64,000 nt of DNA from an uncultured Nitrososphaerales archaeon (GCA_963695855.1 CAVOHZ010000006.1:32001-96000); one strand, 5' to 3'; counted from the first letter of the stretch, positions 773-55,038 are shown. The notes: generated from the letters alone by a model not told the origin. Translations and numbers: made by a program.

Positions 773-2386
773 TTAAGACATTTTCTTCCAGCTCTCTATT
801 TCCTTGATAATCGCTATGGGTCTTTCTGTAATTAGGGGGAGCTTACCTCCATAAACCGATCCAGTGGTACCATCTAATGTAATGTAGTCTCCCTCGTTGA
901 GAATATCCTTGTTAATAATACATGTCCGTTCTTTAAGATCTATCAATATTTCGCGACAGCCCACAATACACACTTTATCCATTTGTCTTGCAACTACTGC
1001 TGCATGAGATGTTCTTCCACCCTGATTCGTAACTAGCCCAGAGCATACGGCTATACCTGCAATATCATCAGTGGATATATCTTGACGAACTAGTACAAGT
1101 TGCCCGCCTTCGCTAGTCTTGCCAGTAGCTCTCTCTGAATCTAGCACGATTTTGCCCACTGCCACTCCACGATTTGCAGATATTCCTTTACATAATACCT
1201 TTAAATTAGAAGATGAAGATAAACTCGTTCTCGATATCTTATTTAAATCATATTTTTTAACTCTCTCCAACCCAGTAGCAAAATCTATCAATCCTTCATT
1301 CACTAGGTCCACAGCAATTTGAATAGCGGCCCAAGACGTTCGTTTACCAGTCCTTGACTGCAGAATAAAGAGCTTTCCTTCCTGAATTGTGAATTCAAAG
1401 TCCTGCATATCTTTGAACTCTGTTTCCAAACGCAACTTTATGTTCTGTATTTTCTTATATACTTGGGGCATTATCTTCTTTAGCTTTTCTGCATTCCTAA
1501 CTGCATGTCGGCCGGATACTATGTCCTCTCCTTGTGAATTGAAGAGGAAATCTATGTACAGACTATCTTCGCCTGTAGCGGGATCCCTAGTAAAAGCTAC
1601 GCCTGAACCCGATGTGGCTCCCATATTTCCAAAAACCATAGCTTGGATTATGGCCGCAGTTCCTATCAGATCCCTGATATCATGAAGCCTACGATATTCA
1701 ATCGCCCTTGGACTGTTCCAGGATCTAAAGACTGCTCCAATCGCTTCCCTCAGCTGAACGAGAGGCAGTTGGGGAAATGGAACATGTACATGTTCCTCAA
1801 ATATTTTCATGTAGATTCTTGACAAACTCTTGAGTTCTTCCGCACTGAGCTCTCTGACGTCCCTTAATCCTTTATTGATAATATCCTCTTTCAATATACT
1901 TTCAAAAAAATTTGGAGGACAACCATACACAACTTTAGCATATGTTTCAATCAATCGTCTATACGAATCCCAGACAAATTTTGGGTTTCCAGTCATTCTG
2001 ATCAACCCATCTATTGTAGAATCACAGAGACCGACATTCAATATTGATTCCAACATCCCCGGCATAGAAACTGCTGCGCCAGAACGGACGGATAAAAGTA
2101 AAGGCCTTCGTGAGCCTCCAAAAGTAAGACGGCTTGTATCTTCAATTTTCTTGATAAAGAATTCCACGGTATCTTCAAAATTCGGTGGAAGAATTTGATT
2201 ATTCCTCAGATACCTATCGCAAATTGATGTGCTTATCACAAATCCAGGGGGAACAGGGAGCATGATTTTGTCCATTCTCATTAGGTACATCGCCTTAGAA
2301 CCTACTTCAAATCCGCTAGGAAAGTGTGCATGAGAATTGGATGATCCGAAGAAATAGATATTTCCTTGATCTGTTTTGGTGGTCAT
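773..2386 (-). CDS. Truncated pyruvate phosphate dikinase-like protein: ATP-grasp and phosphohistidine swivel domains, no C-terminal PEP/pyruvate-binding barrel
   Basis: VGSKA, LPVPPGFVIST, LLSVRSGAAVSMPGM, VFGNMG..SGSGVAFTRDPATGE, QGEDIVSG, DMQDFEFTIQ..LFILQSR, GGRTSHAAVVARQM. ORF stops about 30 aa after ITLDG. Likely start MTTKT at 2386 (ORF track starts at 2500, overlapping the upstream gene). Confidence 0.9.
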   Translation of the reverse strand: MTTKTDQGNIYFFGSSNSHAHFPSGFEVGSKAMYLMRMDKIMLPVPPGFVISTSICDRYLRNNQILPPNFEDTVEFFIKKIEDTSRLTFGGSRRPLLLSVRSGAAVSMPGMLESILNVGLCDSTIDGLIRMTGNPKFVWDSYRRLIETYAKVVYGCPPNFFESILKEDIINKGLRDVRELSAEELKSLSRIYMKIFEEHVHVPFPQLPLVQLREAIGAVFRSWNSPRAIEYRRLHDIRDLIGTAAIIQAMVFGNMGATSGSGVAFTRDPATGEDSLYIDFLFNSQGEDIVSGRHAVRNAEKLKKIMPQVYKKIQNIKLRLETEFKDMQDFEFTIQEGKLFILQSRTGKRTSWAAIQIAVDLVNEGLIDFATGLERVKKYDLNKISRTSLSSSSNLKVLCKGISANRGVAVGKIVLDSERATGKTSEGGQLVLVRQDISTDDIAGIAVCSGLVTNQGGRTSHAAVVARQMDKVCIVGCREILIDLKERTCIINKDILNEGDYITLDGTTGSVYGGKLPLITERPIAIIKEIESWKKMS

Positions 2387-2474
2387 ATCTAATTGCAAGC
2401 AACACTTGATGTTATGTTGGTTAATTGTAGGAAGTTGCCAAGACAATTCTCTGCTTTGAAATATGATAAGTAGA

Positions 2475-4484
2475 TCAAATTGCAAGAACCTCATTGGCAT
2501 AGTCTCTTAATATCACAGCAGATTTAGTGAGTGAGTCGGTCCCCTCCTCTATATTCTTTGAGATTTCAGATAATATATGTAATTGCTTAAAATTATTTGA
2601 CTCATTCATTATAGCGGCGTTCACCTTACGGGTTACATCATCTGCTTGGTGTTCTAATGTAATGATTTTATCTATAGTTTCAAGAAAATCATCAATTTCT
2701 TCACGGGTACTCCATTTGTCTATAATTTTTACGTTTTCAATTGCCTTGAGGTACTCCATTGAACTATGCACAGCTAATTCTGCAAGGTCTAGTAGAGGTT
2801 CATAAAAATCTCCTATGATTTCTTCTTTAGAAACCAATGTCAATAAGAAAAGGGTTTCCTCCATGGAATCGGCAGCATCATCCGCATTACTCACGAAGTT
2901 CTCAAATACAATAGAGGCATTTGACCGCTTAAGTATAACACGAATATTATTCAACAAAGCGTCAGCATTTTTCTCCCAGACTTTCACTCTTTCGGCATTT
3001 CTCGTAATAAATTCTTGGTCGTCACTCTCTATCTGAACCAGGCCGTCCCTTACTATTGTACTAATTTCAACTACCAAAGATGCATGATTTGCAGCTATGT
3101 TTAGAAGGCTTTCATCAATACTGCGAAAATTTTTGGCGAGTTCAACTCTCACTTCATCACGTATTAGAAATTCCGATTTGCCTTCTATCAATCCTTCAGC
3201 ACAAGTTTGGAGAACAAATTTTAGGAATTCAATCGCCTTTTCTCTACTAAGAACATCCTCGAATTTATCCCCGAAATGAAGAGGGGACTTTGCAGTTTTT
3301 TTTATAGCATCGAAAATTAATTGTTCTCCGCCCATCTTCAGAAATCCCATATGACCCAAATCATTATCTGCAGCCCATTTCAATATGCTGAAGACATCCT
3401 CTTTCTTTACGAATATACCCAGACGTTTTCTTGCACGATTCCAATCAATTAGAAATACTATACGTGACGCCAAGAAAGAAAGATAGACTTCTAGATCCAT
3501 AGGATTTTTTGCGACATAAGTTCCGATGGAGATATGATACAGTCCAGAACCTTTAAATTTTTCACTTTGCCTTGATGTTGTGTTTTCCCACTTTACGTCA
3601 AATCTGTCAAGCATTGAATGAAAAAAAATTAGTCTTTGAATGTGTATATCAGAACAAGTTACTGAAACTGTCATTTCCTTAATTTTAATAACAAGTACGT
3701 GCGCATCAGTAGTTCCTATATCATTTTGGATTAATAACATATCTGCTGAACGGGTGGCTGTTGTATCCAGTCCAGGATGTTCAAACTTTAATTTTTTTGA
3801 TTTATTAATTCCCTTCATGAATGCTCGTACTAGTACCTTGTCATTGTCCGTTATCCCATAGACTTTCGCTCCATCGATGGATTCGTGATATATTAGAGAC
3901 TGTAGTCTGTTAAGCTCCTTATGAATTCCCATAACAAGAAGATGAAAACTGTCTCGATTTTTTGGTTCACCAGAAATAATATTGTCTATAATCAAATCTG
4001 AAATAATATCTTCATCTATTCTGGGGATTGTTGCCAATAGATCCTTGAATCTATTACGAAGACTATCATAATCTGCTATTTGGAACAGTTTTGAATTGGT
4101 AACTAAATTCGAGTCGTGTATTCTTTTTTGATCAGTTGGTTCGAAAAAAGTTTGTAAAGGAAGAATCATTTGCTTAATATTTTCGATTATATTGGCAATT
4201 ATAGGATTTACGTTGGGTATGTAATAGTAATTTTCAAGATCCGGCGTTTTGACGCTGTATTCTACTACTCTATCAAGATTAGTGTCTTGAATACCGCATT
4301 CTTCACGCTCGTTCCTAAGGTTTGAAAGTTCAATTTGAGGATTATCAGCGTGATGTTTTGCCATCTGAAGTAGTGAAAAAAAATACTTTACTCTGTCATT
4401 AGCATCGAACGCATCTGAAATCAGCTTTGGAAGTAAAAGTTCTCTAATTCCTAATTCTCGTATTATTTCTGCTTTCTCTGTCAA
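2475..4484 (-). CDS. 669-aa protein with an uncharacterised N-terminal/central region and a C-terminal PhoU-like/DUF47 double helical bundle
   Basis: C-terminal ~210 aa has the duplicated E-x-x-A-D and acidic-cluster pattern (WEKNAD...ADDAADSMEE; LEHQADD...IEEGTDSL). Central motifs KFEHPGLDTTATR, IQNDIGTTDAHVLVI, DIHIQRL. Confidence 0.7.
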   Translation of the reverse strand: MTEKAEIIRELGIRELLLPKLISDAFDANDRVKYFFSLLQMAKHHADNPQIELSNLRNEREECGIQDTNLDRVVEYSVKTPDLENYYYIPNVNPIIANIIENIKQMILPLQTFFEPTDQKRIHDSNLVTNSKLFQIADYDSLRNRFKDLLATIPRIDEDIISDLIIDNIISGEPKNRDSFHLLVMGIHKELNRLQSLIYHESIDGAKVYGITDNDKVLVRAFMKGINKSKKLKFEHPGLDTTATRSADMLLIQNDIGTTDAHVLVIKIKEMTVSVTCSDIHIQRLIFFHSMLDRFDVKWENTTSRQSEKFKGSGLYHISIGTYVAKNPMDLEVYLSFLASRIVFLIDWNRARKRLGIFVKKEDVFSILKWAADNDLGHMGFLKMGGEQLIFDAIKKTAKSPLHFGDKFEDVLSREKAIEFLKFVLQTCAEGLIEGKSEFLIRDEVRVELAKNFRSIDESLLNIAANHASLVVEISTIVRDGLVQIESDDQEFITRNAERVKVWEKNADALLNNIRVILKRSNASIVFENFVSNADDAADSMEETLFLLTLVSKEEIIGDFYEPLLDLAELAVHSSMEYLKAIENVKIIDKWSTREEIDDFLETIDKIITLEHQADDVTRKVNAAIMNESNNFKQLHILSEISKNIEEGTDSLTKSAVILRDYANEVLAI

Positions 4485-4989
4485 CTAATCTGCCACGGAA
4501 TAAATATTATGCATATGATATATTCATATAAATAGATTGTATATATAGTCCATAGAGCAACGTGCATATATCGTTTATTCTTTGGAGACAATGGTAAAAT
4601 TGTCCTTTATTTAATAGCACTAAAGAATAGATAGTTGAAAAATCTATTATTTTTCGAGGATGTTGATATGCCTTTACTTGTTGTGAAAGTGGCCATAACA
4701 AGAGTTATATCCATTGCCTTTGTACAAACCTCACAATTCTTTATCTCTTTTTTTTTGAAATATCAGAACGGACTCAATATGCTCAATTAACAGTAATTTC
4801 ATTTCTATTTAGAATTTCTTTTACTTTTCATGTTTATAGTATTTTTGATTCGTACAATAGTAATTGTTATTCTTATTGTATATACCGTGTCCAATAGAGC
4901 GGCCTATAACTGTCTATGTAGATGAAAGAGATCTAAATGATCAATGTTAAGAATTACTATATAGCTACATTGATTATTTTAAAATCTTC

Positions 4990-6348
4990 ATGAATCCGCA
5001 TCGAGAAAATTTGTTTCAGGATGAATTATATTTACTTGATTTTATGGACGCATCCGTTAATTGGACAAAATTAAATCTAGAATATATATCTGTATATATA
5101 GACACATATTTTAGCACCTCCCAGGATGTTCTAAAACTTGGACAATGGGACACATTCTACGATAGATGGTTATCAAATATCGACAGAGAATTAGAATGCG
5201 AGTTAGGCTCCAGGCAATTTACTAGTAATTTGAAAGATTGGATGAAGTCTACCATTAAATTACGATCAACTTATCGTACATTAGGATTTCCTATCGAACA
5301 TTACGACGAACTACTTTATTCAATCAAGAAGTTTATGATGAGTCTTTATGTTTTTCCTTTGATGCAAGAATTTGGATACTCTACTCCTTCAGAAGTGGTC
5401 TATACACTAGGAAAGGTTACTCTCCGTCACTATAAAAACAGTCAAAGTAAGCTTACCGCTGTTGGACTTCCTGTACTTATTGTATATGCACAGATTAATA
5501 GATTCAACATACTAGATATAAGCTCTGACAGAAGTGTGGTGAGGAATCTAACATCAAACGGTTTGGATGTGTACGTTCTGGATTGGGGGTACTCTGGAAG
5601 TCAAGATGATAACAGATCTGTTGAGGATTACGTGAAAATACTACACAGTGTTATGGATATCATCACTTCAAGGCACAAAAAAAATGATAAAATATCGATT
5701 CTAGGATATTGCTGGGGAGGATTAATTTCAATTATTTTCACAGCGCTTCATCCAGACAGAGTAAACGCTCTAGCTCTACTGGCTTCACCTGTTGATTCTA
5801 GCAAGGATAACAGTTTGCTAGCTGTTTGGGCACGCTCTATCGATGCTGATATGATAATACAAGAATTTGGTCATATGGATGGACAGATTCTTGACCTTGC
5901 TTTTATTATGAGGAATCCACCAAGAAACCTTTGTGACAAATATTTGAAATTGTTCAAAAACTTCAACGATAAACATTTTGTGAATTCTTTTTTAGCAGTT
6001 GAAAACTGGCTCTTTCGCACTCCTCCGATACCTGGTGTATTGTACCGTCAAATTATAAACGACCTGTACAAGAGAAATCTCTTGATTAGAAATGATATCA
6101 AGATAAACGGCAAAGCGGTTGACTTGAAGAAGATAGATGTTCCATTGTTAAATATAGTCGCTGAAAATGATGATTTGGTATCACCAGCTTCTTCCCTGGC
6201 TGTAAACGAATACGTATCAAGCGTAGATAAGAAGTCGATTAAAATACCAGGAGGCCATGTAGGTTTGTTAATTAGCAAGAGGGCGCATGAGAAACTGTGG
6301 CCTGAAGTCGCAGACTGGATACTGCTGTCTAGGACAAGAAGAAAATAA
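4990..6348 (+). CDS. phaC: Class III PHA synthase PhaC with a fused N-terminal PhaE-like segment
   Basis: STPSEVVY, PVLIVYAQINRFNILD, DVYVLDWG, lipase box GYCWGG, AENDDLV, GGHVGL. The first ~120 aa align by eye with PhaE at 52050. Confidence 0.85.
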   Translation: MNPHRENLFQDELYLLDFMDASVNWTKLNLEYISVYIDTYFSTSQDVLKLGQWDTFYDRWLSNIDRELECELGSRQFTSNLKDWMKSTIKLRSTYRTLGFPIEHYDELLYSIKKFMMSLYVFPLMQEFGYSTPSEVVYTLGKVTLRHYKNSQSKLTAVGLPVLIVYAQINRFNILDISSDRSVVRNLTSNGLDVYVLDWGYSGSQDDNRSVEDYVKILHSVMDIITSRHKKNDKISILGYCWGGLISIIFTALHPDRVNALALLASPVDSSKDNSLLAVWARSIDADMIIQEFGHMDGQILDLAFIMRNPPRNLCDKYLKLFKNFNDKHFVNSFLAVENWLFRTPPIPGVLYRQIINDLYKRNLLIRNDIKINGKAVDLKKIDVPLLNIVAENDDLVSPASSLAVNEYVSSVDKKSIKIPGGHVGLLISKRAHEKLWPEVADWILLSRTRRK

Positions 6349-7521
6349 CAATATGTTCCGGTTTCAATCTAATTACTGTTATGGATTTTCTCAATGTTTT
6401 GCTTCTTTGTTTACCTTCCTTTCCTGGTTTGGTAAGTGGTCACGCATGATCTGTAAGATCAGGAACATTCAAGCTGGATTTGCCATGAGGTAAAAGTAAT
6501 ATTTTTTCATTTTGGAGACAGATTATTTATATTTATATTAATTCTTAGACCTTTATCATAAGTGGAAAAAACTTAAGGAACAAATAATTAAATTTGATAA
6601 AATTTTAACTGTGCAATTCAACTTTTAGGTATCAATACAAAAATGAGCAGTGAATGGTTCTGATAGTATTTTTGGCCCTTGAACCTGTAAATTATCTCCA
6701 TGTATTTTTACATTGATACTTATTAAGAATCATAAAATAAAGAAAATTTTGAGATGTATTACATATTCTTCTTAAATCAATTGACACAAACTATCATTTT
6801 CACAAAGGGTTCGGATCATATTTAGAAGTATAATCGGTAATTATACAATTTCATAGTTGGTAGTATTCTTGTATTCAATAGTCTCTTGATTTCTCCTTTG
6901 GTCTTTGAGTGGAATGCAGTGACAGGAAGTTAGAAAGTCCAAATTTTCAGGATAAGGAATGATGTAAAGCATCATTGCATGAATTGCCAATATTATTTTA
7001 TTTGTGATTCTACTATGACAGGACTCATGCCCTGTTATAATCAGATAAGATTTGAATTTCAATTTGAACAGAATTTTAAAAAATAGGAATCTTTCTTCCT
7101 CTGCTTTTAAATGATAGGATATTTACAATATATTTTAGGGATTTTTAACCATCTCCTTCTTTTTGATATCCGTTCAGATATCTGTAGGAAACTGGCTCTG
7201 GAAATGTGGGGGATGTTTATAGCTACAAGTTACTCTCCGTCAATCGCGTTTGCGTCCAAGATACCATAGTCTAGTCTTGATCTTTTTCATATCGCACATA
7301 ATCTCACACTGCTTAATCCGAACGATCAAAAAATGTCCAAATGCTATAGCATGATAGAAATTATATAATCACATGCGAGTTTAAATTCCAATATTGTTTT
7401 AGAATTACTTCTCATTCCTTTTAACTTGAATGCGAATAATTCATCATGTATCTCATAGATTTCCAGACAACACGTCTTTTGCCAGATGTAGTTTTATTAA
7501 TTATAATTATAAGATTATTTT

Positions 7522-7642
7522 TTATTTGTTTATTTTATTCTTCCTTTCGTGTTTATTTTTATTATTATATTTTGATGTATTTATTGTCTCTATATCACTA
7601 CCAATTTTTTTTACTTCAGATTGTAGTCTAGAGATTTGAGAT
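7522..7642 (-). pseudogene. 3' remnant of a paralog of the Lys-rich protein at 15711-16343
   Basis: 7571-7642 matches 16003-16074 at 63/72 nt; translates SQISRLQSEVKKIGSDIETINTSKYNNKNKHERKNKINK*. Confidence 0.75.
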
Positions 7643-7749
7643 CCTTTGTTTTCGAATGGCGTTGGAATGGATTTTCTTCTACTGCAAATAATTGACCTAT
7701 ATTAAAGATAAAACAATTGAAGTTTTTGAGAAGGCATCTTTTTGAAGAA

Positions 7750-8820
7750 TAGATCTTTTGCGTAATAGATAAGCTTACAGCTATATTCCTCTTTTTTAGC
7801 AGTTATATTTCGTAGATTTGCTAAATTACGATAGATTATCCAGAAAACTACAAATGTTCAGGTCATTTACAGAATTGGAATTAACAGAATTTGATTCAAT
7901 TTACAAGGAAATTGAATCCAGATATAATGAATACGAGGTAAAACGTCTCTCTAAAAGAAAGAAGAGAAGAATAAGACCTGTAGGTATGGGAGGTAGACAC
8001 TTCAAACATCCAGTAAGAGATAGATTTCTTATGCTTTTGGTGTACTACAGATTATACATAACACATACACTTTCTGGTTTTCTGTTTGACTTGGACCAGA
8101 GCAATGTGTACAGGGATATAAGATACATAGAACCTTTAGTCAAAAAATGTATTCCATTACCAGAAAAACTGTACAATAGTACAAGACGGTTGAGATCTGT
8201 AGAAGAGGTAGAAAAGTACTTTCCTGAATTTAAGGCATTTATAGATGCAACCGAACAGGAGATACAAAGACCAAAAAACAAAAGAAAGAGGAGAAACTAC
8301 TATTCGGGCAAGAAGAAAAGACATACCGTAAAGACGCAGTACATGGTAAACAAAGAAGGAAAGATATTACATAAATCAGACCACAGAAAAGGAAGACAGC
8401 ATGACTATTCTGTTTACAAGGATCAACATCCTGCTACACCATCACAAGTAGAAAACTATTTTGATCTTGGATACCAAGGAATAAAAAATGATTTTCCAGA
8501 TCTGAAAGTAGCATTGCCAGCAGTAAAGAAGAAACGTAATATTGATCTTACCAAACAGGAGAAAAGGTACAATAGAAAACAGCGTAAACAGCGAACAATA
8601 GTAGAACATACAATCTGCAGGATAAAAAAATTTGGTATTATGAGTACCAGATACAGGAACAGACTGAAAAGATATGATACAGTATCAGATATTGTATCGG
8701 GTCTTGTTAATTACAGAATCATAAAGAAGAGTAATAATCTATCGCTACTATAGAACAAGAATACAGACAGAGAAGAGTAATAGGAGATTACAAAAATTGT
8801 TCAATTACGCAAGACATCTA
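7750..8820 (+). mobile_element. IS5-family (ISL2-like) insertion sequence
   Basis: Imperfect terminal inverted repeats tagatcttttgcgtaat (7750-7766) and attacgcaagacatcta (8804-8820), with TA at both outer ends, flanking one transposase. Confidence 0.85.
7818..8753 (+). CDS. Transposase (HTH plus DDE_Tnp_4-like domain)
   Basis: LMLLVYYR...LFDLDQSNVYR HTH; FIDATEQ, YYSGKKKRHTVKTQ, GRQHDY, DLGYQG, RTIVEHTI..IKKF. Confidence 0.92.
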   Translation: MLNYDRLSRKLQMFRSFTELELTEFDSIYKEIESRYNEYEVKRLSKRKKRRIRPVGMGGRHFKHPVRDRFLMLLVYYRLYITHTLSGFLFDLDQSNVYRDIRYIEPLVKKCIPLPEKLYNSTRRLRSVEEVEKYFPEFKAFIDATEQEIQRPKNKRKRRNYYSGKKKRHTVKTQYMVNKEGKILHKSDHRKGRQHDYSVYKDQHPATPSQVENYFDLGYQGIKNDFPDLKVALPAVKKKRNIDLTKQEKRYNRKQRKQRTIVEHTICRIKKFGIMSTRYRNRLKRYDTVSDIVSGLVNYRIIKKSNNLSLL

Positions 8821-9352: not shown

Positions 9353-9901
9353 TTGTACAAATTGGATCTATATATTATGAGGCATGGTGACGCTGGAAAA
9401 CGTCTTTCCGATTCTATACAAGACCGGTCAAGATCGTTAACACAACAAGGTCTGAAAGAAGTCAGAACGATTTCAAAATCTTTAAAGCTTCTAGATGTTA
9501 AATTCGATACAATATTTTCTAGTCCTCTCCCAAGAGCATTACAAACAGCTATTATTGTTGCTAATCAGTATAAATTAAAAAATAAAATAGAAAAATATGA
9601 TGAATTAATTTCTCAACAAGACAGGTTCATATTCTATGATATATTGGCTAATTATAATCGAATGTCTTCGATTCTAATTGTTGGACATGAACCATATCTC
9701 AGTACCATGATTAGTGACATCATATCAAATAGTGACGATAAAAATAAGACTAATAATGACATAAAATCAAATAGTAATATTATCCTAAAAAAGGCAGGTC
9801 TATCAAAAATTAGAATAACTTCTACTGTACCTACTTTACAAGGAGAATTAAGATGGTTACTTACACCAAATATTTTAAAAGAAGTCAAAGATACGTCATA
9901 A
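9353..9901 (+). CDS. sixA: Phosphohistidine phosphatase SixA (copy 1)
   Basis: LYIMRHGDA, SSPLPRALQTA, LIVGHEPYL, LKKAG, GELRWLLTP. Confidence 0.88.
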   Translation: MYKLDLYIMRHGDAGKRLSDSIQDRSRSLTQQGLKEVRTISKSLKLLDVKFDTIFSSPLPRALQTAIIVANQYKLKNKIEKYDELISQQDRFIFYDILANYNRMSSILIVGHEPYLSTMISDIISNSDDKNKTNNDIKSNSNIILKKAGLSKIRITSTVPTLQGELRWLLTPNILKEVKDTS

Positions 9902-10550
9902 CTTTACTGCCTGATATATCTTGTATTAAATTTTCATATCCTTGCAGATAATTTTCTATTGTCTACTAAATTTACTATGATATACTATATTGAATACATA
10001 TGTAAAACTAAAATTTCTTGTTCCTATATAACTATTGAATCAATATCTTGGAACTCTATATACTTAGACACGGAGAGACATCTAAAAAACTGTACTCCTC
10101 TGTAGATTCCAATCACTCTCTCACATTTTCAGGAAAATCTGAAATTGAAGAAATAGGCAATTCAATTAAAAAATTAAGAATCAAGATCGACTTAATATTA
10201 ACAAGTACTATCTCTTCAAGTCTAGAAACTGCGGATATAATAAATAATTTATTTAACAAAAAAATAAAAATCTTAAAATGCGAAGATCTACAACCAGAAG
10301 GAAACATATTAAATGTTTACAAAATTATATCTGAATTTGATCAAATGTCTTCGATTCTAATTGTTGGACATGAACCATATCTCAGTACCATGATTAGTGA
10401 CATCATATCAAATAGTGACGATAAAAATAAGACTAATAATGACATAAAATCAAATAGTAATATTATCCTAAAAAAGGCAGGTCTATCAAAAATTAGAATA
10501 ACTTCTACTGTACCTACTTTACAAGGAGAATTAAGATGGTTACTTACACC
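9661..10550 (+). repeat. 207-bp perfect direct repeat shared by the two sixA genes (9661-9867 and 10344-10550)
   Basis: Identical from aatgtcttcg to ttacacc; flanking 5' halves are divergent. Confidence 0.93.
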
Positions 10551-10575
10551 GAGACTATTAAAGAGTATTATCTAG
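10048..10575 (+). CDS. sixA: SixA-like protein (copy 2) with the second conserved Arg lost
   Basis: LYILRHGE and VGHEPYL present; TSTISSSLETA replaces S-P-x-x-R-A-x-Q-T-A. Confidence 0.8.
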   Translation: MELYILRHGETSKKLYSSVDSNHSLTFSGKSEIEEIGNSIKKLRIKIDLILTSTISSSLETADIINNLFNKKIKILKCEDLQPEGNILNVYKIISEFDQMSSILIVGHEPYLSTMISDIISNSDDKNKTNNDIKSNSNIILKKAGLSKIRITSTVPTLQGELRWLLTPRLLKSII

Positions 10576-49373: not shown

Positions 49374-50195
49374 TTAGTCTATTTCAAATAGTCTGCCATT
49401 TAGAAATCTTGATACGATTCTATTAAATTCCTGTGTTTTCTCTAGATGAGGATAATGACCACACTGATCAAATATTACAAGTCTCGAATTCGCAATTTGA
49501 AATTTTTTTGCATATCTTAGAGGCATTAGTTTATCATTTCTTCCCCAAATTATCAATGTAGGTGTATTAATATTTAGTCTATCAGTGAGCTGAGGATGAT
49601 TTTTAAGTGATATTAAAGTAGACATGAAAGCAAACTTTGAATTACTCAGATTCATCCTCTTAATAAAATCTTGGATTGAATCTTCTGTAATCATACGCGG
49701 ATCATACACCATCTCATAGTATGCTGTTGCCACATTATAGAACGTGGGATAGAGTGCAGCAGAAATATATTGGTTCAAAGATGGTGTTATATGATTCATC
49801 ATTCCAGCTGGCGATATTAAAACCAGTTTGTTTATATCTTTGGGAAATCTAATAGTATATTCTAACGCTAAAAGTCCCCCAAACGAGGAACCCATAAGAT
49901 GTAAATTATCAATCTCCATAATTTGAAGGAATCTTTGAATAAATTTTATAAAAAAATCCATATTGTATTCTGCATGAGGTTTATCACTGTACCCAAAACC
50001 AATTATATCTGGTACTAATAGTCGATAAAATTTAGATAAAAATGGTATTATTTCTGACCAGCGGTCTAATGATCCTCCCAAGCCATGGAGCAGAAGCAGT
50101 GTTGATTTTTTTGGATTGCTATTCTTTTTACCGGTGTCTAGGTATCTAATTGAATAATCATCAACTTTCATTGTCGCAATATCGCGGTCAATCAA
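49374..50195 (-). CDS. Alpha/beta hydrolase
   Basis: LLHGLGG, PD..GFG.SD, GSSFGG nucleophile elbow, WG.ND, GH.PHLE. Confidence 0.9.
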   Translation of the reverse strand: MIDRDIATMKVDDYSIRYLDTGKKNSNPKKSTLLLLHGLGGSLDRWSEIIPFLSKFYRLLVPDIIGFGYSDKPHAEYNMDFFIKFIQRFLQIMEIDNLHLMGSSFGGLLALEYTIRFPKDINKLVLISPAGMMNHITPSLNQYISAALYPTFYNVATAYYEMVYDPRMITEDSIQDFIKRMNLSNSKFAFMSTLISLKNHPQLTDRLNINTPTLIIWGRNDKLMPLRYAKKFQIANSRLVIFDQCGHYPHLEKTQEFNRIVSRFLNGRLFEID

Positions 50196-50493
50196 ACTAT
50201 AGAACTGATATCAGAACATCTAGTATTTTATCCATTTGAAATAAGTATTAGTGAATATCGGGATTTTTCTGCTTCTTGATTAATTTTTCTAAATTGTTGT
50301 CTTATTTTTTCAAATAGTTAATATAATCTTATTATAATGGACTAATTAAATTATTGAAATGTCTATAACATGTATATTTGAGACCCATTAACAAAAAAAT
50401 TGGTAAGTAAAAATAAACATTTAGCTTGATTTTTTCTTATCGATTTACTAAATATATATATATTTTGTTATTAGTTAATTATATTGAACTAAT

Positions 50494-50982
50494 ATGACTA
50501 ATTGGAATGAAAAAGATGAAAATCGCAAAGCTGGAAATGAACCAGGTCAGTCTACAGCAAGTCAGAGATCTGAGCTATATGACTCGATAAGAGATAATAC
50601 AAATAAGATCATGAATGAAATTGCTAAAACTCAACCTGTGTACATACAATCAATCTCCAATCTTCAAATGGAGTGCATAGAATCTACTAAAGGAGTAGTA
50701 AATACTTATACTACCATTCAAAAACAATTATCAGATTGTTACAATATAAATCCTGTGACTGGGGTTACAAAACAATTCGTAAAACATGGCAATGAATTTA
50801 CAAATAACGTTATAGAATTTAATAATATTAACAACAGATTAGTTTTAAATTTATTGAATATTACAAGCGATAGTATCAAAAACTACACGAAGACATTAGA
50901 TACATTTGTAAAATTCAATACGAATATTTTTGAACAATGGCTTTCGATCTTTAAAAATTTTAAAGTATTTAATAGACCATAA
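50494..50982 (+). CDS. Amphipathic helical protein, putative phasin
   Basis: Similar to 60050-60658 (P.Y.Q.I...Q.E.I...K.....Y/F...QK/EK); about 1 kb upstream of phaE. Confidence 0.55.
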   Translation: MTNWNEKDENRKAGNEPGQSTASQRSELYDSIRDNTNKIMNEIAKTQPVYIQSISNLQMECIESTKGVVNTYTTIQKQLSDCYNINPVTGVTKQFVKHGNEFTNNVIEFNNINNRLVLNLLNITSDSIKNYTKTLDTFVKFNTNIFEQWLSIFKNFKVFNRP

Positions 50983-51152
50983 TCTTTTTTTTGAAAAGGT
51001 TTATAAAGAATAACACTAGAAATTTTTTAAAAATATTATTAGAATTGTGATTGATCTTTTATTATATTACACATTCTTCAATGCCTACCTCATAGCTTTG
51101 AAATAACATAGTAAGACTTTTTTATTTGGTTAAAGATTGTTGAATAATAATA

Positions 51153-51545
51153 ATGGTACCTTATGAATTCATTTATTCATTTACAAAGACTATGATGGGG
51201 ATAGATAATTCTGTCAGATGGGTTTGCGTGACAGATAAACAAGGCACATTAATTAATGAGAGATATCGTGAAGGAATAAAGCTCCTTATGACTGAGGAAG
51301 AAAATGAAGAATACGCTTCCAACGCGATTTCAAGACAACGTACAAGGATGAAATTCGAACCAAAAATAGGAAAATTAATTTATGCTTTAGGAAAATACGA
51401 AAATGTCATTCGAGCTACGATTCCAATAAATGAAGACTACTATTTGTTATTAACTATTGATAGGGAAGCAAGTAATATTGACAGGATACTCATGACTAAG
51501 GTTATTCCAATGATATCTGAGCTAAGGAATAAATTTACTCCATGA
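51153..51545 (+). CDS. DUF6659/roadblock-like small protein
   Basis: VRW....D..G.LI...R.G...L.T.EE...R..F...IGK..Y....YE.V.R.TIP. Confidence 0.6.
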   Translation: MVPYEFIYSFTKTMMGIDNSVRWVCVTDKQGTLINERYREGIKLLMTEEENEEYASNAISRQRTRMKFEPKIGKLIYALGKYENVIRATIPINEDYYLLLTIDREASNIDRILMTKVIPMISELRNKFTP

Positions 51546-52049: not shown

Positions 52050-52628
52050 ATGCAAATGGCTTCTGATCAAGAATTTAATAAAAAGTATGAGGAATTGATA
52101 AATAGTTACAATACTATATGGAAAGATTTTTTAAAATTACCTATGGCTGGTAAAAGTAATCAATTTATTCGTACATTTGAAGAAAATCAAAAAATGTTTC
52201 AGGATTTACTCTCACTTTGTTCAAGATTTCAATCTAATATTCTTAATTATTTCATTCAAGTAAATCAAACATATGTGAAATCTATCGCCGAATTGCAATC
52301 TAAAAAACCTGAATTGCCTGATTTTCAGTCAGAAGAAGAGGTTAAAAAGTATAAAAATTTGACAATAGATGTGTTTGAGAAATATTTTACACAGCTATTT
52401 CAATCTAAGGAATTTTCTGTTACCACTTCCGAGCTGCTTTCTAATTATTCTTCCTTCACACATATATTGGGAAAAGCATACGATAATTATTTTAAATTAT
52501 TAAACTTACCTAACAGAGATGAGATAGACATGATCTTAAAGGATATGCAGGATTTAAAAAGAGAGGTATACAAATTGCGCAAAAATTTAGATTTAATAAT
52601 GAGTGAAGAGAAACTTGTCGTTAAATAA
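52050..52628 (+). CDS. phaE: Class III PHA synthase subunit PhaE
   Basis: F..LF.S.EF, LNLPNRDEID...K....LKREV; overlaps phaC. Confidence 0.85.
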   Translation: MQMASDQEFNKKYEELINSYNTIWKDFLKLPMAGKSNQFIRTFEENQKMFQDLLSLCSRFQSNILNYFIQVNQTYVKSIAELQSKKPELPDFQSEEEVKKYKNLTIDVFEKYFTQLFQSKEFSVTTSELLSNYSSFTHILGKAYDNYFKLLNLPNRDEIDMILKDMQDLKREVYKLRKNLDLIMSEEKLVVK

Positions 52629-53769
52629 AGTTACCACTTCTAAAGAACCTGAAATTAAGGTTAAGGAATTATCACCTTCTAATCAAAAGATTGACGATAC
52701 TTCTTCACGGAGCCCCGGCATTTTGGGTGATGGTGAAACAAACAACGATGTGGTAACAAAAATGAAAAAGATAATAGAAGCATATCAAAAATCCATGTCC
52801 CTAGAAGTTGGTTCAACTCCTCATGATGTCGTGAAAGAGACCAGATTATATAGATTGTTACATTATAAAAGTACATTTGATGTACCTATAAGGCCCCCCG
52901 TGCTAATTGTCTATGCCCTGATAAACAGGTCTTATATACTTGACTTGCAACAGGATAAAAGTTGGATAGGAAATCTGGTGAGACAGGGATTCGATGTATA
53001 TCTTATAGATTGGAAGGCTCCTTCTTTAAATGACAAATATGTTTCATTCGATGACTATGTGAATGTTTTTATTGACGATTGTATAGAGTTCATTCGAAAT
53101 AAGAGCTCCGCGGAAAAAATAACGCTACATGGATATTGTATGGGTGCATCCATGTCTGCCATGTATTGTTCTTTGCATCAACACAAAATCAAGAATCTAA
53201 TAACCCTTGCTCCAGTTATAGATACTAGTAAAGACAATACGGTGATCAGTAATTTTGCAAAACATTTGGACATTGAAAACATAATAGATTCTATGGGTAA
53301 TATGCCACCAGAATTACTTCAAACATGTTTTTCTGCATTAAAACCATTTAAACAGGGCGTAAACAAGTATTTTTCGCTTTATGAACATATCAACGACAAA
53401 AGATTTATTGAAAACTTCCTTAGAATTGAGAGATGGTTATCTGATATACCTCCAATAGCTGGAGAAGCTTTTAAACAATGGATTAAAGATATATATCAAG
53501 AAAATCTCCTAGTAAAAAATGAAATGAAATTGGGTAGCGACCTCGTAAATTTATCCAGAATCACTGTTCCTTTTCTTAATCTCGTTGCAAATGAGGACCA
53601 TCTAGTATTTCCTGATGGAAGTGCAGAATTAAATAATCTCGTATCTAGTCAGGATAATAGGATAATGAGGTTTCCTACTGGTCACGTTGGTTTAATTGCA
53701 AGTAGTTATTCGCAAATGAATGTATTGCCAAAAGCCGGAAGATGGTTATTCTTGCGTTCTGATGTATAA
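52603..53769 (+). CDS. phaC: Class III PHA synthase subunit PhaC
   Basis: VGSTPHDVV, PVLIVYALINRSYILDLQ, DVYLIDW, GYCMG, DHLV, TGHVGL. Confidence 0.93.
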   Translation: MKRNLSLNKVTTSKEPEIKVKELSPSNQKIDDTSSRSPGILGDGETNNDVVTKMKKIIEAYQKSMSLEVGSTPHDVVKETRLYRLLHYKSTFDVPIRPPVLIVYALINRSYILDLQQDKSWIGNLVRQGFDVYLIDWKAPSLNDKYVSFDDYVNVFIDDCIEFIRNKSSAEKITLHGYCMGASMSAMYCSLHQHKIKNLITLAPVIDTSKDNTVISNFAKHLDIENIIDSMGNMPPELLQTCFSALKPFKQGVNKYFSLYEHINDKRFIENFLRIERWLSDIPPIAGEAFKQWIKDIYQENLLVKNEMKLGSDLVNLSRITVPFLNLVANEDHLVFPDGSAELNNLVSSQDNRIMRFPTGHVGLIASSYSQMNVLPKAGRWLFLRSDV

Positions 53770-54384: not shown

Positions 54385-55038
54385 TTATCCAATTGTATCT
54401 TGCGAGATTTGAGTCGACTCAGACACAGAACTATTGTCTACGATTGAACATGAACCTGCCTTTTTGTCACCTTGATCGGATTTATAGTCAAATATAGTAT
54501 CAAACTGATCACATATAAAAGTGTCCGAACCTAACCCTCCAATTAGTATATCGACGCCGTCGCCTCCATCAATTTGATCGTTTCCATCGCCTCCATCAAT
54601 TTGATCATCACCTCGTCCGCCGTATAATCTATCATCTCCTTCGTTGCCAGTTATTAAATCCATACCCCTCTCACCATCCAATTTGTCATACCCCTCTCCT
54701 CCTTCAATCTCATCATTACCTTGTTCTCCCTTCACAACGTCATCTCCCTCATCACCATCTAATTCGTCATCACCTCGTCCGCCGAATAACATATCATTTC
54801 CCAATCTTCCATTTATTTCGTCATCTCCTTCACCTCCCTTGATTTTATCATCACTACTAGTTCCGTCAATTGAAACATCTATCTCTGGTTTCTCTTGACT
54901 GAATGGGATGTCATTTTGTTCGTCTCCTGATTGAAAATTGTCAACCTGACCCCCTGCAAATTTAATTATTATAGATTCAATAGGAAATGCTAATGAAATT
55001 AAAATTACTAAGATTAAAGTATATGTGGTTTTTGCCAA
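54385..55038 (-). CDS. Secreted RTX/hemolysin-type calcium-binding repeat protein
   Basis: Signal peptide and about 13 consecutive nonapeptide repeats of the GGxGxDxxx type. Confidence 0.88.
   Translation of the reverse strand: MAKTTYTLILVILISLAFPIESIIIKFAGGQVDNFQSGDEQNDIPFSQEKPEIDVSIDGTSSDDKIKGGEGDDEINGRLGNDMLFGGRGDDELDGDEGDDVVKGEQGNDEIEGGEGYDKLDGERGMDLITGNEGDDRLYGGRGDDQIDGGDGNDQIDGGDGVDILIGGLGSDTFICDQFDTIFDYKSDQGDKKAGSCSIVDNSSVSESTQISQDTIG

What the first reader, a model, noticed from the sequence alone, without database searches (positions are those of the whole stretch)
4990..6348. Natural single-chain PhaE-PhaC fusion synthase in addition to a canonical phaEC operon
Seen: the N-terminal ~120 aa align with PhaE from this window in three blocks: DFMDASVNWTKLNLEYISVYIDTY vs DLLSLCSRFQSNILNYFIQVNQTY; ELGSRQF vs LFQSKEF; YRTLGFPIEHYDELL vs FKLLNLPNRDEIDMIL. 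They run in frame into a PhaC with Cys/Asp/His intact (GYCWGG, ENDDLV, GGHVG). Established: class III synthases need separate PhaE and PhaC. Inference: this is a self-sufficient single-chain class III synthase, possibly under different control because it is divergent from the PPDK-like operon.
Basis: partly seen in the sequence, partly recalled or inferred. Interest (0 to 1): 0.72.

Follow-up and report, generated by a model that had tools for sequence, protein, structure and literature searches.

The report
PhaC synthase with fused PhaE-like domain
This archaeal gene encodes a bioplastic (PHA) synthase whose first ~100 residues are a distant relative of the helper subunit PhaE. It belongs to an old, widespread family in ammonia-oxidising archaea that sits beside the ordinary two-gene PhaE/PhaC enzyme.

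Summary
ORF 4990..6348 (+, 452 aa) is a PhaC-type synthase with the Cys-Asp-His triad intact (C241, D394, H423). A canonical phaE-phaC operon lies at 52050..53769.

Pairwise, the N-terminus does not match the window's PhaE (BLASTP E 6.8) and Pfam misses it. Profile-profile comparison does recover homology to the central helices of PhaE: probability 95%, E 3.8e-8, residues 19-98 against PhaE 58-143. Reversed, shuffled and class I N-domain controls stay far below. AlphaFold models agree helix for helix.

The protein is not unique. It belongs to a clade of N-terminally extended PhaCs found in Nitrososphaera, Nitrosocosmicus, Nitrosocaldus, Nitrosotalea and Nitrosopumilaceae. This clade is separate from the PhaE-linked short PhaCs (bootstrap 95). 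I counted it in 34 of 151 sampled genomes of the order. 33 of those 34 also keep a short phaC, which lies beside phaE wherever Pfam finds phaE. Self-sufficiency is therefore plausible but untested.

In six loci, counting the window, the gene faces a conserved PPDK-like / 669-aa gene pair.

Verdict: a real, ancient PhaE-PhaC fusion-type architecture, and a new variant of a known kind. The claim that the enzyme works alone is open.

The parts
4990..6348 (+). Long PhaC paralogue, 452 aa: PhaE-like N-terminal module plus PhaC alpha/beta-hydrolase core
   Evidence: ORF list. TIGR01836 322 bits over aa 131-444. AlphaFold2 model with mean pLDDT 86.7 and pTM 0.88. Best PDB matches are PHA synthases.
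5014..5280 (+). PhaE-like three-helix module, aa 9-97 (helices 8-50, 53-72, 75-97)
   Evidence: hhalign against PhaE profiles: probability 94.5-95%, E 4e-8 to 8e-8, with controls. Family-conserved D65, L72, S74 and F77 align with PhaE E110, F117, S119 and F122. pLDDT is 87-94.
5281..5379 (+). G99-F-P101 loop and helix 102-125, linking the module to the core
   Evidence: A low-confidence hhalign extension pairs GFPIEHYD with PhaE NLPNRDEID (P101/P154, D106/D160). Helices 75-125 superpose on residues from about 163 of full-length class I PhaC 9knl_B.
5380..6321 (+). PhaC catalytic alpha/beta-hydrolase core, aa 131-444
   Evidence: TIGR01836 positions 36-347. 36% identity to the window's short PhaC. 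VIA-align Z 30-34 to solved PhaCs.
5710..5712 (+). Cys241 of the GYCWGG lipase box, the nucleophile
   Evidence: Invariant in 44 of 44 sequences. Aligned to GYCIGG of A. caviae PhaC 9knj.
6169..6171 (+). Asp394 (ENDDLV), candidate catalytic Asp
   Evidence: Invariant in 44 of 44 sequences. Aligned to the Asp of AREDHIV in 5xav and VDDHIA in 9knj.
6256..6258 (+). His423 (GGHVG), candidate catalytic His
   Evidence: Invariant in 44 of 44 sequences. Aligned to SGHIA of 5xav.
4485..4989 (.). 505-bp divergent intergenic region between the 669-aa gene and long phaC, presumably holding both promoters
   Evidence: No ORF of 80 aa or more. Promoters were not analysed.
2475..4484 (-). 669-aa protein with a DUF47/PhoU_div C-terminus, divergent neighbour in conserved synteny
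   Evidence: PF01865 E 2.3e-9 at aa 465-650. Homologues lie upstream of long phaC in L013, L014 (contig edge), L020, L022 and L034.
773..2500 (-). PPDK-like protein, 575 aa: ATP-binding and phospho-His swivel domains, no PEP/pyruvate domain
   Evidence: PF01326 plus PF00391. TIGR01828 covers only positions 4-514 of 865. Conserved with the 669-aa gene in L013, L020, L022 and L034.
52050..52628 (+). Canonical PhaE, 192 aa
   Evidence: PF09712 E 2.2e-11 and TIGR01834 E 2.3e-11. It is the only PF09712 match in the genome.
52603..53769 (+). Canonical short class III PhaC (open frame 388 aa; the true start is probably further in)
   Evidence: TIGR01836 436 bits, above the cut-off. Falls in the PhaE-linked clade.

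Best explanation
ORF 4990..6348 encodes a PHA synthase of the PhaC family in which a PhaE-derived helical module has become the N-terminus of the catalytic subunit. The module corresponds to PhaE helices 2-4, and probably also to the Pro-containing loop and helix 5.

Shown: homology of aa about 9-97 to the central part of PhaE; an intact Cys241-Asp394-His423 triad; a confident single-chain fold; membership of an old, conserved clade of such extended PhaCs in ammonia-oxidising archaea, distinct from the PhaE-linked short PhaCs.

Inferred:
- The clade arose from a duplicated phaE-phaC pair by gene fusion, with loss of the first about 47 residues of PhaE.
- The enzyme polymerises (R)-3-hydroxyacyl-CoA through the covalent Cys mechanism of PhaC.
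- The fused module does in cis what PhaE does in trans, whether that is activation, oligomerisation or granule contact.
- The protein is a second synthase under separate control, possibly by the conserved divergent PPDK-like / 669-aa pair.
For: Homology to PhaE:
- hhalign A3 (44 N-domains) against A2 (30 PhaEs): probability 95.0%, E 3.8e-8, Q19-98 against PhaE 58-143. A1 against A2: 89%, E 2.3e-6. Local run against a 57-row PhaE alignment: 94.5%, E 8.3e-8.
- Controls: reversed 3.9%; 30 column shuffles at most 12%; 30 block shuffles at most 55%. A class I N-domain profile of 12 sequences gave at most 0.3%.
- A PhaE HMM hits only the N-terminal about 10-105 residues of the long PhaCs, best 2.2e-8. 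At least 76 of 120 were hit; the printout was cut.
- Pfam PF09712 hits 7 of 44 members weakly and two long PhaCs in genome scans.
- The divergent clade B N-domains match both A3 (92%) and PhaE (84%, E 7.5e-6) independently.
- Conserved residues coincide: D65/E110, L72/F117, S74/S119, F77/F122.
- AlphaFold helices 8-50, 53-72, 75-97 and 102-125 parallel PhaE helices 35-84, 95-118, 120-150 and 156-191.

Catalytic core: triad invariant in 44 of 44 and aligned to solved PhaCs; Z 34.5 to 9knl_B.

Clade: 66 extended rows separate from 6 PhaE-linked archaeal short rows plus a bacterial one, UFBoot 95 / SH-aLRT 85.
Against: - Pairwise BLASTP is not significant (E 6.8).
- PF09712 does not hit this protein even at E<=10.
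- The A3 profile finds no true PhaE ORF at E<=0.01 in 61 genomes.
- hhalign identity is only 6-7%, and both partners are helical. One block shuffle reached probability 55%.
- The PhaE N-terminus with its near-invariant P31/G34 is missing, and the NLPTRxExD motif plus coiled coil is matched only at low confidence.
- TIGR01836 is below its cut-off (322 against 365.3).
- Against a role independent of PhaE: 33 of 34 genomes with a long form also carry a short phaC. In those where PF09712 finds phaE, it lies beside that short gene. PF09712 misses or only weakly hits phaE in one genus.
- No activity or expression data exist for any member that I could find.
Confidence: 0.6

Rival explanations
1. Accessory PhaC that still needs PhaE in trans, like the unlinked 'cryptic' phaC paralogues of Haloferax mediterranei. 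The N-terminal module would then serve another purpose, such as granule targeting, regulation or hetero-oligomerisation with PhaEC.
For: 33 of 34 sampled genomes with a long form also keep a short phaC. phaE lies beside that short gene wherever PF09712 finds it, as it does in the 5 of 5 genomes checked in detail. The fused module lacks the PhaE N-terminus, and its match to the conserved PhaE C-terminus is uncertain. In H. mediterranei, a PPS-like repressor controls an unlinked phaC1 (PMC10948481, abstract and passages).
Against: A covalently attached PhaE-like module that packs confidently on the core (pTM 0.88) would be expected to occupy the PhaE site. The module is conserved over the whole clade.
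Confidence: 0.25
2. The N-terminal domain is an unrelated helical extension, and the PhaE likeness is a by-product of helical composition.
For: Identity is 6-7%. There is no pairwise or Pfam signal for this protein. One block-shuffled control reached probability 55%. The single-profile search A3 does not find PhaE ORFs.
Against: - The real score of 48-52 stands well above reversed (19.9), column-shuffled (at most 23.6) and class I N-domain (at most 15.5) controls.
- Two independent N-domain alignments and clade B all hit the same PhaE region.
- The conserved residues coincide, and the helix breaks coincide.
- The PhaE HMM hits are always N-terminal.
Confidence: 0.1
3. The extension is a shortened class I-type N-terminal domain, so the protein is a class I-like homodimeric synthase and owes nothing to PhaE.
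For: The best structural matches are full-length class I PhaC of Aeromonas caviae. The superposition reaches back to model residue 74-77, against about 124 for catalytic-domain-only structures.
Against: - hhalign of A3, clade B and PhaE profiles against 12 class I N-domains gave probability at most 0.3%.
- The A3 profile has no hit to 9knj at E<=10.
- Pfam PhaC_N matches only aa 132-185.
- TIGR01838 scores 88 bits against a cut-off of 622.
- Helices 8-72 are outside the superposition.
Confidence: 0.05
4. The protein is not a polymerase but another Cys-dependent alpha/beta-hydrolase-fold enzyme, such as an acyltransferase or thioesterase, derived from PhaC.
For: It scores below the curated TIGR01836 cut-off. 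Many homologues are named only 'alpha/beta fold hydrolase'. There are no functional data.
Against: The G-x-C-x-G-G box and the triad are invariant and aligned to solved synthases. The closest folds are all PhaC (Z 30-34), against 25 or less for lipases. The attached PhaE-like module fits a synthase.
Confidence: 0.1

Closest known systems
Class III PHA synthase PhaE + PhaC (bacterial, haloarchaeal and thaumarchaeal two-gene enzymes; this window's 52050..53769)
   Same: The catalytic core is class III-like: TIGR01836 is the best family, and identity to the window's short PhaC is 36%. The core carries a Cys-Asp-His triad. The N-module is homologous to the central helices of PhaE.
   Different: It is one polypeptide rather than two genes, and it is not next to phaE. 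It scores below the TIGR01836 cut-off. The PhaE N-terminus is absent and the PhaE C-terminal coiled coil is not clearly present. It forms a separate clade from the PhaE-linked PhaCs.
Class I PhaC, full length (Aeromonas caviae, PDB 9knj/9knk/9knl)
   Same: A single chain with a helical N-terminal part preceding the same alpha/beta core. Z 34.5, rmsd 3.0 A over 327 residues. Helices 75-125 superpose on residues from about 163.
   Different: There is no sequence-profile similarity between the N-domains. The extension is shorter (about 100-130 aa). TIGR01838 is far below its cut-off.
Nostoc sp. [quoted passage not shown]
   Same: A PhaE-type and a PhaC-type domain in one predicted protein.
   Different: That is a single bacterial record that Pfam itself detects. 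I did not fetch it, and its domain order is unknown to me. The archaeal family here is old, diverse, escapes Pfam's PhaE model and is conserved in many genomes.
Unlinked 'cryptic' phaC1-3 paralogues of Haloferax mediterranei and their PPS-like repressor PspR (PMC10948481 abstract and passages; PMC2939530 and PMC12863089 seen only as search listings)
   Same: Extra phaC copies lie away from phaE, next to or under the control of a PEP-utilising-enzyme-like protein that has lost its enzyme role.
   Different: To my knowledge the haloarchaeal paralogues have no PhaE-like N-domain (recalled, not tested). The window's neighbour is PPDK-type, not PPS/RPH-type, and comes paired with a 669-aa protein. 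A regulatory role here is only a lead.

Membership tests
Class III PhaC (TIGR01836) | G-x-C-x-G-G lipase box with a Cys nucleophile, plus Asp and His of the triad | tested here: met
   GYCWGG, D394 and H423 are invariant in 44 of 44 sequences and aligned to solved PhaCs.
Class III PhaC (TIGR01836) | Score above the curated family cut-off | tested here: not met
   322 bits against a cut-off of 365.3. The window's short PhaC scores 436.
Class III PhaC (TIGR01836) | About 355-aa subunit encoded beside phaE | tested here: not met
   The protein is 452 aa. The only PF09712 gene in the genome lies about 46 kb away, beside the short phaC.
Class III PhaC (TIGR01836) | Activity depends on a separate PhaE subunit | not testable with these tools
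   Needs expression and assay.
PhaE (PF09712 / TIGR01834) | Match to the curated family model | tested here: not met
   No hit for aa 1-137 at E<=10. 7 of 44 family members give weak hits, best E 0.0073.
PhaE (PF09712 / TIGR01834) | Homology to the central PhaE helices (W/I-D-x-F-E ... L-F-x-S-x-E-F region) | tested here: met
   hhalign probability 95%, E 3.8e-8, with controls. The helix pattern agrees.
PhaE (PF09712 / TIGR01834) | C-terminal NLPTRxExD motif followed by a coiled-coil helix | tested here: inconclusive
   GFPIEHYD plus helix 102-125 aligns with it only at a low alignment threshold.
PhaE (PF09712 / TIGR01834) | N-terminal region with near-invariant Pro31/Gly34 | tested here: not met
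   The alignment starts at PhaE residue about 48-58, and no counterpart is present.
Class I PhaC (TIGR01838) | Family model score | tested here: not met
   88 bits against a cut-off of 622.65.
Class I PhaC (TIGR01838) | N-terminal domain of the PhaC_N / class I type | tested here: not met
   hhalign against 12 class I N-domains gave probability at most 0.3%. PhaC_N matches only aa 132-185. Structurally, only helices 75-125 superpose.
Extended thaumarchaeal PhaC clade (defined here) | N-domain matching profile A3, fused to a PhaC core, and branching apart from the PhaE-linked PhaCs | tested here: met
   A3 profile E 3.3e-37 on G000. The window row lies in clade A, support 100/99 and 95/85.

The most novel reading that the evidence does not exclude
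The extended PhaCs of ammonia-oxidising archaea are a distinct, self-sufficient single-chain class of PHA synthase, born from an ancient phaE-phaC fusion. If so, their confident fold shows where and how PhaE docks on PhaC, for which I found no solved structure. It also links PhaE to the last helices of the class I N-terminal domain, implying that two-subunit and one-subunit synthases are split and fused versions of one architecture.
Probability: 0.35. Interest if true: 0.75.

Novelty: new variant of a known kind. Interest (0 to 1): 0.55.

Why it matters
What PhaE does, and where it binds PhaC, remain unsettled as far as I know. I found no PhaE structure by sequence search of the PDB. A natural, conserved fusion gives a one-chain model of that interaction, and it can be expressed, truncated and solved.

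It also means that many ammonia-oxidising archaea carry two PHA synthase systems. The second is often annotated only as 'alpha/beta fold hydrolase', which matters for reading their carbon-storage physiology.

For enzyme engineering, a single-gene class III-type synthase would be convenient, if it proves active alone.

My searches found no paper describing this domain in archaeal PhaCs. They found only a 2019 preprint noting one possible Nostoc fusion. Subscription journals and supplements were not searchable.

Tried and rejected
- Narrow PhaE alignment (17 close relatives): hhalign gave only 9 columns at probability 0.2%, and its HMM found nothing in the loci. The alignment was too shallow, so I replaced it with diverse PhaEs.
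- Single-sequence search with aa 1-130 in 41 relatives found 6. This was under-sensitive, and the profile searches replaced it.
- Complex prediction of long PhaC plus PhaE: 'no answer', score 0.01, controls not run. This is no evidence either way.
- The look-up of sequencing runs: no RNA holder listed; 11 DNA rows from 8 studies, all holding under half of the sampled words.
- The protein-atlas search on aa 1-128: best score 0.84, unnamed clusters, no lead.
- Foldseek of the PhaE model against the PDB: nothing at E<=0.001.
- The A3 and A2 profiles against PDB sequences gave only chance or coiled-coil hits.
- Supplements of papers were closed. Table S1 of PMC4084955 may list which Nitrososphaera genes were called phaC and phaE.

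Full report
WHAT IS THERE

ORF 4990..6348 (+) starts with ATG and encodes 452 aa. NCBIfam places aa 131-444 on positions 36-347 of the 350-position class III PhaC model TIGR01836. The score is 322 bits, below the curated 365.3. Class I and II models score far lower. Pfam sees only alpha/beta-hydrolase families, plus the last 52 positions of PhaC_N at aa 132-185. The lipase box GYCWGG sits at nt 5704.

ORF 52050..52628 matches PF09712 (E 2.2e-11). The following ORF, 52603..53769, is a full class III PhaC at 436 bits. The genome (3.55 Mb, 11 contigs) holds one PF09712 gene, these two PhaCs, and a PhaC C-terminal fragment with a TGA on another contig. The two PhaCs are 36% identical from aa 103 onward.

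IS THE N-TERMINUS PhaE-LIKE?

Directly it is not. BLASTP of aa 1-137 against the window's PhaE gives E 6.8 and 18. Pfam gives nothing at E<=10.

The N-terminus is, however, a conserved domain. A search returned 587 relatives at E<=0.001 among 8000 scored candidates, of which 120 were listed. In 44 full-length relatives that I picked from those 120, Y32, L72, F77 and L81 are invariant. Y57, W60, D65, S74, Y84, R92, R96, G99 and P101 are at least 90% conserved. PF09712 hits 7 of these 44 weakly, best E 0.0073.

A shallow PhaE alignment was useless. I therefore searched 1.84 billion representatives with the window's PhaE, which gave 77 hits at E<=0.001. I aligned 56 of the 77, choosing those covering most of the domain, together with the window's PhaE.
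- hhalign of the N-terminal 130 columns of A1 against this alignment gave probability 94.5%, E 8.3e-8, score 48.4, Q9-97 against PhaE 48-142.
- Controls: reversed PhaE columns scored 19.9 (3.9%). Thirty column shuffles reached at most 23.6 (12%). Thirty shuffles of 12-column blocks reached at most 30.8 (55%).
- The session's own hhalign gave 89%, E 2.3e-6 for A1 against A2 (30 PhaEs).
- It gave 95.0%, E 3.8e-8 over 82 columns for A3 against A2. A3 is an independent N-domain-only alignment built from 43 loci plus the window.
- An HMM of the diverse PhaEs hits the long PhaCs only in their first about 105 residues. The best locus hit was 2.2e-8. At least 76 of the 120 proteins were hit; the printout was cut at 80 lines.

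The most conserved residues of the two families coincide in the alignment: D65/E110, L72/F117, S74/S119 and F77/F122. Every row of A2 carries the PhaE C-terminal NLPTR region. So no long-PhaC fragment contaminates the PhaE profile.

Block 3 (P101/P154, D106/D160) is reproduced only in a low-threshold extension. Block 1 lies on the same helices but 4 residues out of register.

STRUCTURE

AlphaFold2 on A1 gives mean pLDDT 86.7 and pTM 0.88. Helices lie at 8-50, 53-72, 75-97 and 102-125, and pLDDT is 87-94 over residues 11-100. The model of PhaE (pLDDT 85.6, pTM 0.57) has helices at 3-28, 35-84, 95-118, 120-150 and 156-191. Under the hhalign mapping, long-PhaC helices 1-4 correspond to PhaE helices 2-5, with breaks at the shared Ser and Pro.

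The nearest solved structures are full-length class I PhaC of Aeromonas caviae: Foldseek E 5e-17, and VIA-align Z 34.5, rmsd 3.0 A, 327 residues, model 77-452 against chain 163-558. Catalytic-domain-only structures begin at model residue about 124. So helices 75-125 also have a structural counterpart at the end of the class I N-domain.

Sequence profiles do not link the two N-domains. A3, clade B and PhaE profiles against 12 plasmid-borne class I N-domains gave probability at most 0.3%. A3 finds no PhaC among PDB sequences at E<=10. I found no PhaE structure by sequence. phmmer aligns GYCWGG to GYCIGG of 9knj, ENDDLV to AREDHIV of 5xav, and GGHVG to SGHIA of 5xav.

HOW WIDESPREAD, AND WITH WHAT?

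A scan of one genome per species gave 77 related loci. They come from Nitrososphaera, Nitrosocosmicus, Nitrosocaldus, Nitrosotalea, Nitrosopolaris and Nitrosopumilaceae MAGs, plus two bacterial outgroups. The N-domain HMM hit 65 ORFs in these and earlier loci.

In 151 genomes of the order that are at least 90% complete, 92 have a PhaC. By my hand count from that table, 34 including this genome have an extended form (match starting at model position 64 or lower, open frame of 435 aa or more). These are 22 of 39 in the window's family, 9 of 10 in a second family and 3 of 39 in a third. 33 of the 34 also have a short form. The exception, G078, is a 250-contig MAG.

PF09712 is found in 87 of the same 151 genomes. 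Wherever both are found, the PF09712 gene lies immediately beside the short phaC. Six PhaC-positive genomes lack a PF09712 hit. Five of them belong to one genus, where the hits that do occur are weak (9.5e-4 and 4.3e-5).

In 5 of 5 genomes checked in detail, phaE plus short phaC form an operon unlinked to the long gene. In 61 genomes of the family, the A3 profile hit 23. Its strong matches (E<=1e-8) lay in ORFs of 440-570 aa, apart from one ORF cut by a contig end and one stop-ridden piece. The weaker matches include a few shorter frames. None was a stand-alone PhaE-sized gene beside a phaC.

PHYLOGENY

An IQ-TREE analysis used 73 distinct PhaC cores (LG+C20+F+G4 by PMSF). I left out one frameshifted fragment (L048), duplicates, rows containing X, and the Bacillus locus, which did not reach my thresholds.

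The 6 PhaE-linked archaeal short PhaCs and the bacterial row fall on one side of a branch, and 66 rows fall on the other, with UFBoot 95 / SH-aLRT 85. The 66 split into two groups:
- Clade A has 45 rows, support 99 in the quick tree, all with a strong N-domain. It includes the window, whose nearest relatives are L013 and L014.
- Clade B has 21 rows, support 100/99.

Two clade B rows (L068, L077) looked short, and I put them in the extended group only after seeing the tree. Both turned out to carry the N-domain in a shifted frame. The clade B N-domains match A3 (92%, E 5.3e-7) and PhaE (84%, E 7.5e-6) on their own. Bacterial and haloarchaeal class III enzymes are split, and their tblastn matches start at query residue about 131. 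The simplest history is therefore one fusion in an ancestor of clades A and B. This is an inference.

NEIGHBOURHOOD

The gene is divergent from an operon of two genes. One encodes a 669-aa protein with a DUF47 C-terminus. The other encodes a 575-aa PPDK-like protein with ATP-binding and phospho-His domains only. The same pair lies upstream of long phaC in L013, L020, L022 and L034, and at the contig edge in L014.

In Haloferax mediterranei, a PPS-like protein that lost its enzyme role represses an unlinked phaC1 (PMC10948481, abstract and passages). This is a parallel, not a shown relationship.

LITERATURE

- Papers on Nitrososphaera evergladensis and Nitrosopumilus maritimus report phaC and phaE without mention of an extended paralogue (PMC4084955 and PMC11082331, passages).
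- A 2019 preprint notes one Nostoc protein with both Pfam domains as unreported before (10.1101/693432, passages).
- Five searches found nothing on a PhaE-like domain in archaeal PhaCs.

VERDICT

The protein is a member of an old, conserved fusion-type PhaC clade. Whether it works without PhaE is open, at roughly even odds. Co-occurrence with phaEC argues that it is an additional synthase, not a replacement.

Noticed in passing
window 773..4484 (-): An operon of a 669-aa protein (DUF47/PhoU_div C-terminus) and a truncated PPDK-like protein (ATP-binding and phospho-His domains, no PEP/pyruvate domain). It is conserved, divergently oriented, next to long phaC in L013, L014 (contig edge), L020, L022 and L034. 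It recalls the PPS-like repressor PspR of Haloferax phaC1, but is of PPDK type.
   Followed up: partly
G000:C3:431260-431685 (outside the window): A third PhaC piece in the same genome. It covers only model positions about 300-440, in a 148-aa open frame with one TGA, so it is probably a gene remnant. A similar fragment occurs in G012 and G135.
   Followed up: no
window 49374..51545 and loci L090, L091: Upstream of the canonical phaE-phaC lie an alpha/beta hydrolase (273 aa, minus strand) and a 162-aa helical protein. Look-alikes lie upstream of phaE in two other genomes. These may be a depolymerase and a phasin-like granule protein.
   Followed up: no
window 9353..9901 and 10048..10575 (+): Two adjacent paralogous ORFs of 182 and 175 aa. 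Their last about 75 residues are identical letter for letter while their N-terminal halves differ, suggesting a recent partial duplication or gene conversion.
   Followed up: no
window 6349..8753: About 1.4 kb without a convincing ORF follows long phaC. It is followed by an IS-type transposase gene (DDE_Tnp_4 plus HTH_Tnp_4) at 7818..8753.
   Followed up: no
window 54385..55038 (-): A 217-aa protein with a signal-like N-terminus and four RTX-type calcium-binding nonapeptide repeat matches (PF00353, E 3.4e-27), just downstream of the phaEC operon.
   Followed up: no
loci L068 (about 5650-5900) and L077 (about 5600-6000): Two clade B long phaC genes carry their N-domain in a different frame from the core, or interrupted by stops. 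These are either assembly frameshifts or decaying copies.
   Followed up: partly
proteins P0179 (449 aa) and P0190 (529 aa): PhaE-like domains followed by long, low-complexity Pro/Gln/Arg-rich tails. They are not PhaC fusions.
   Followed up: partly
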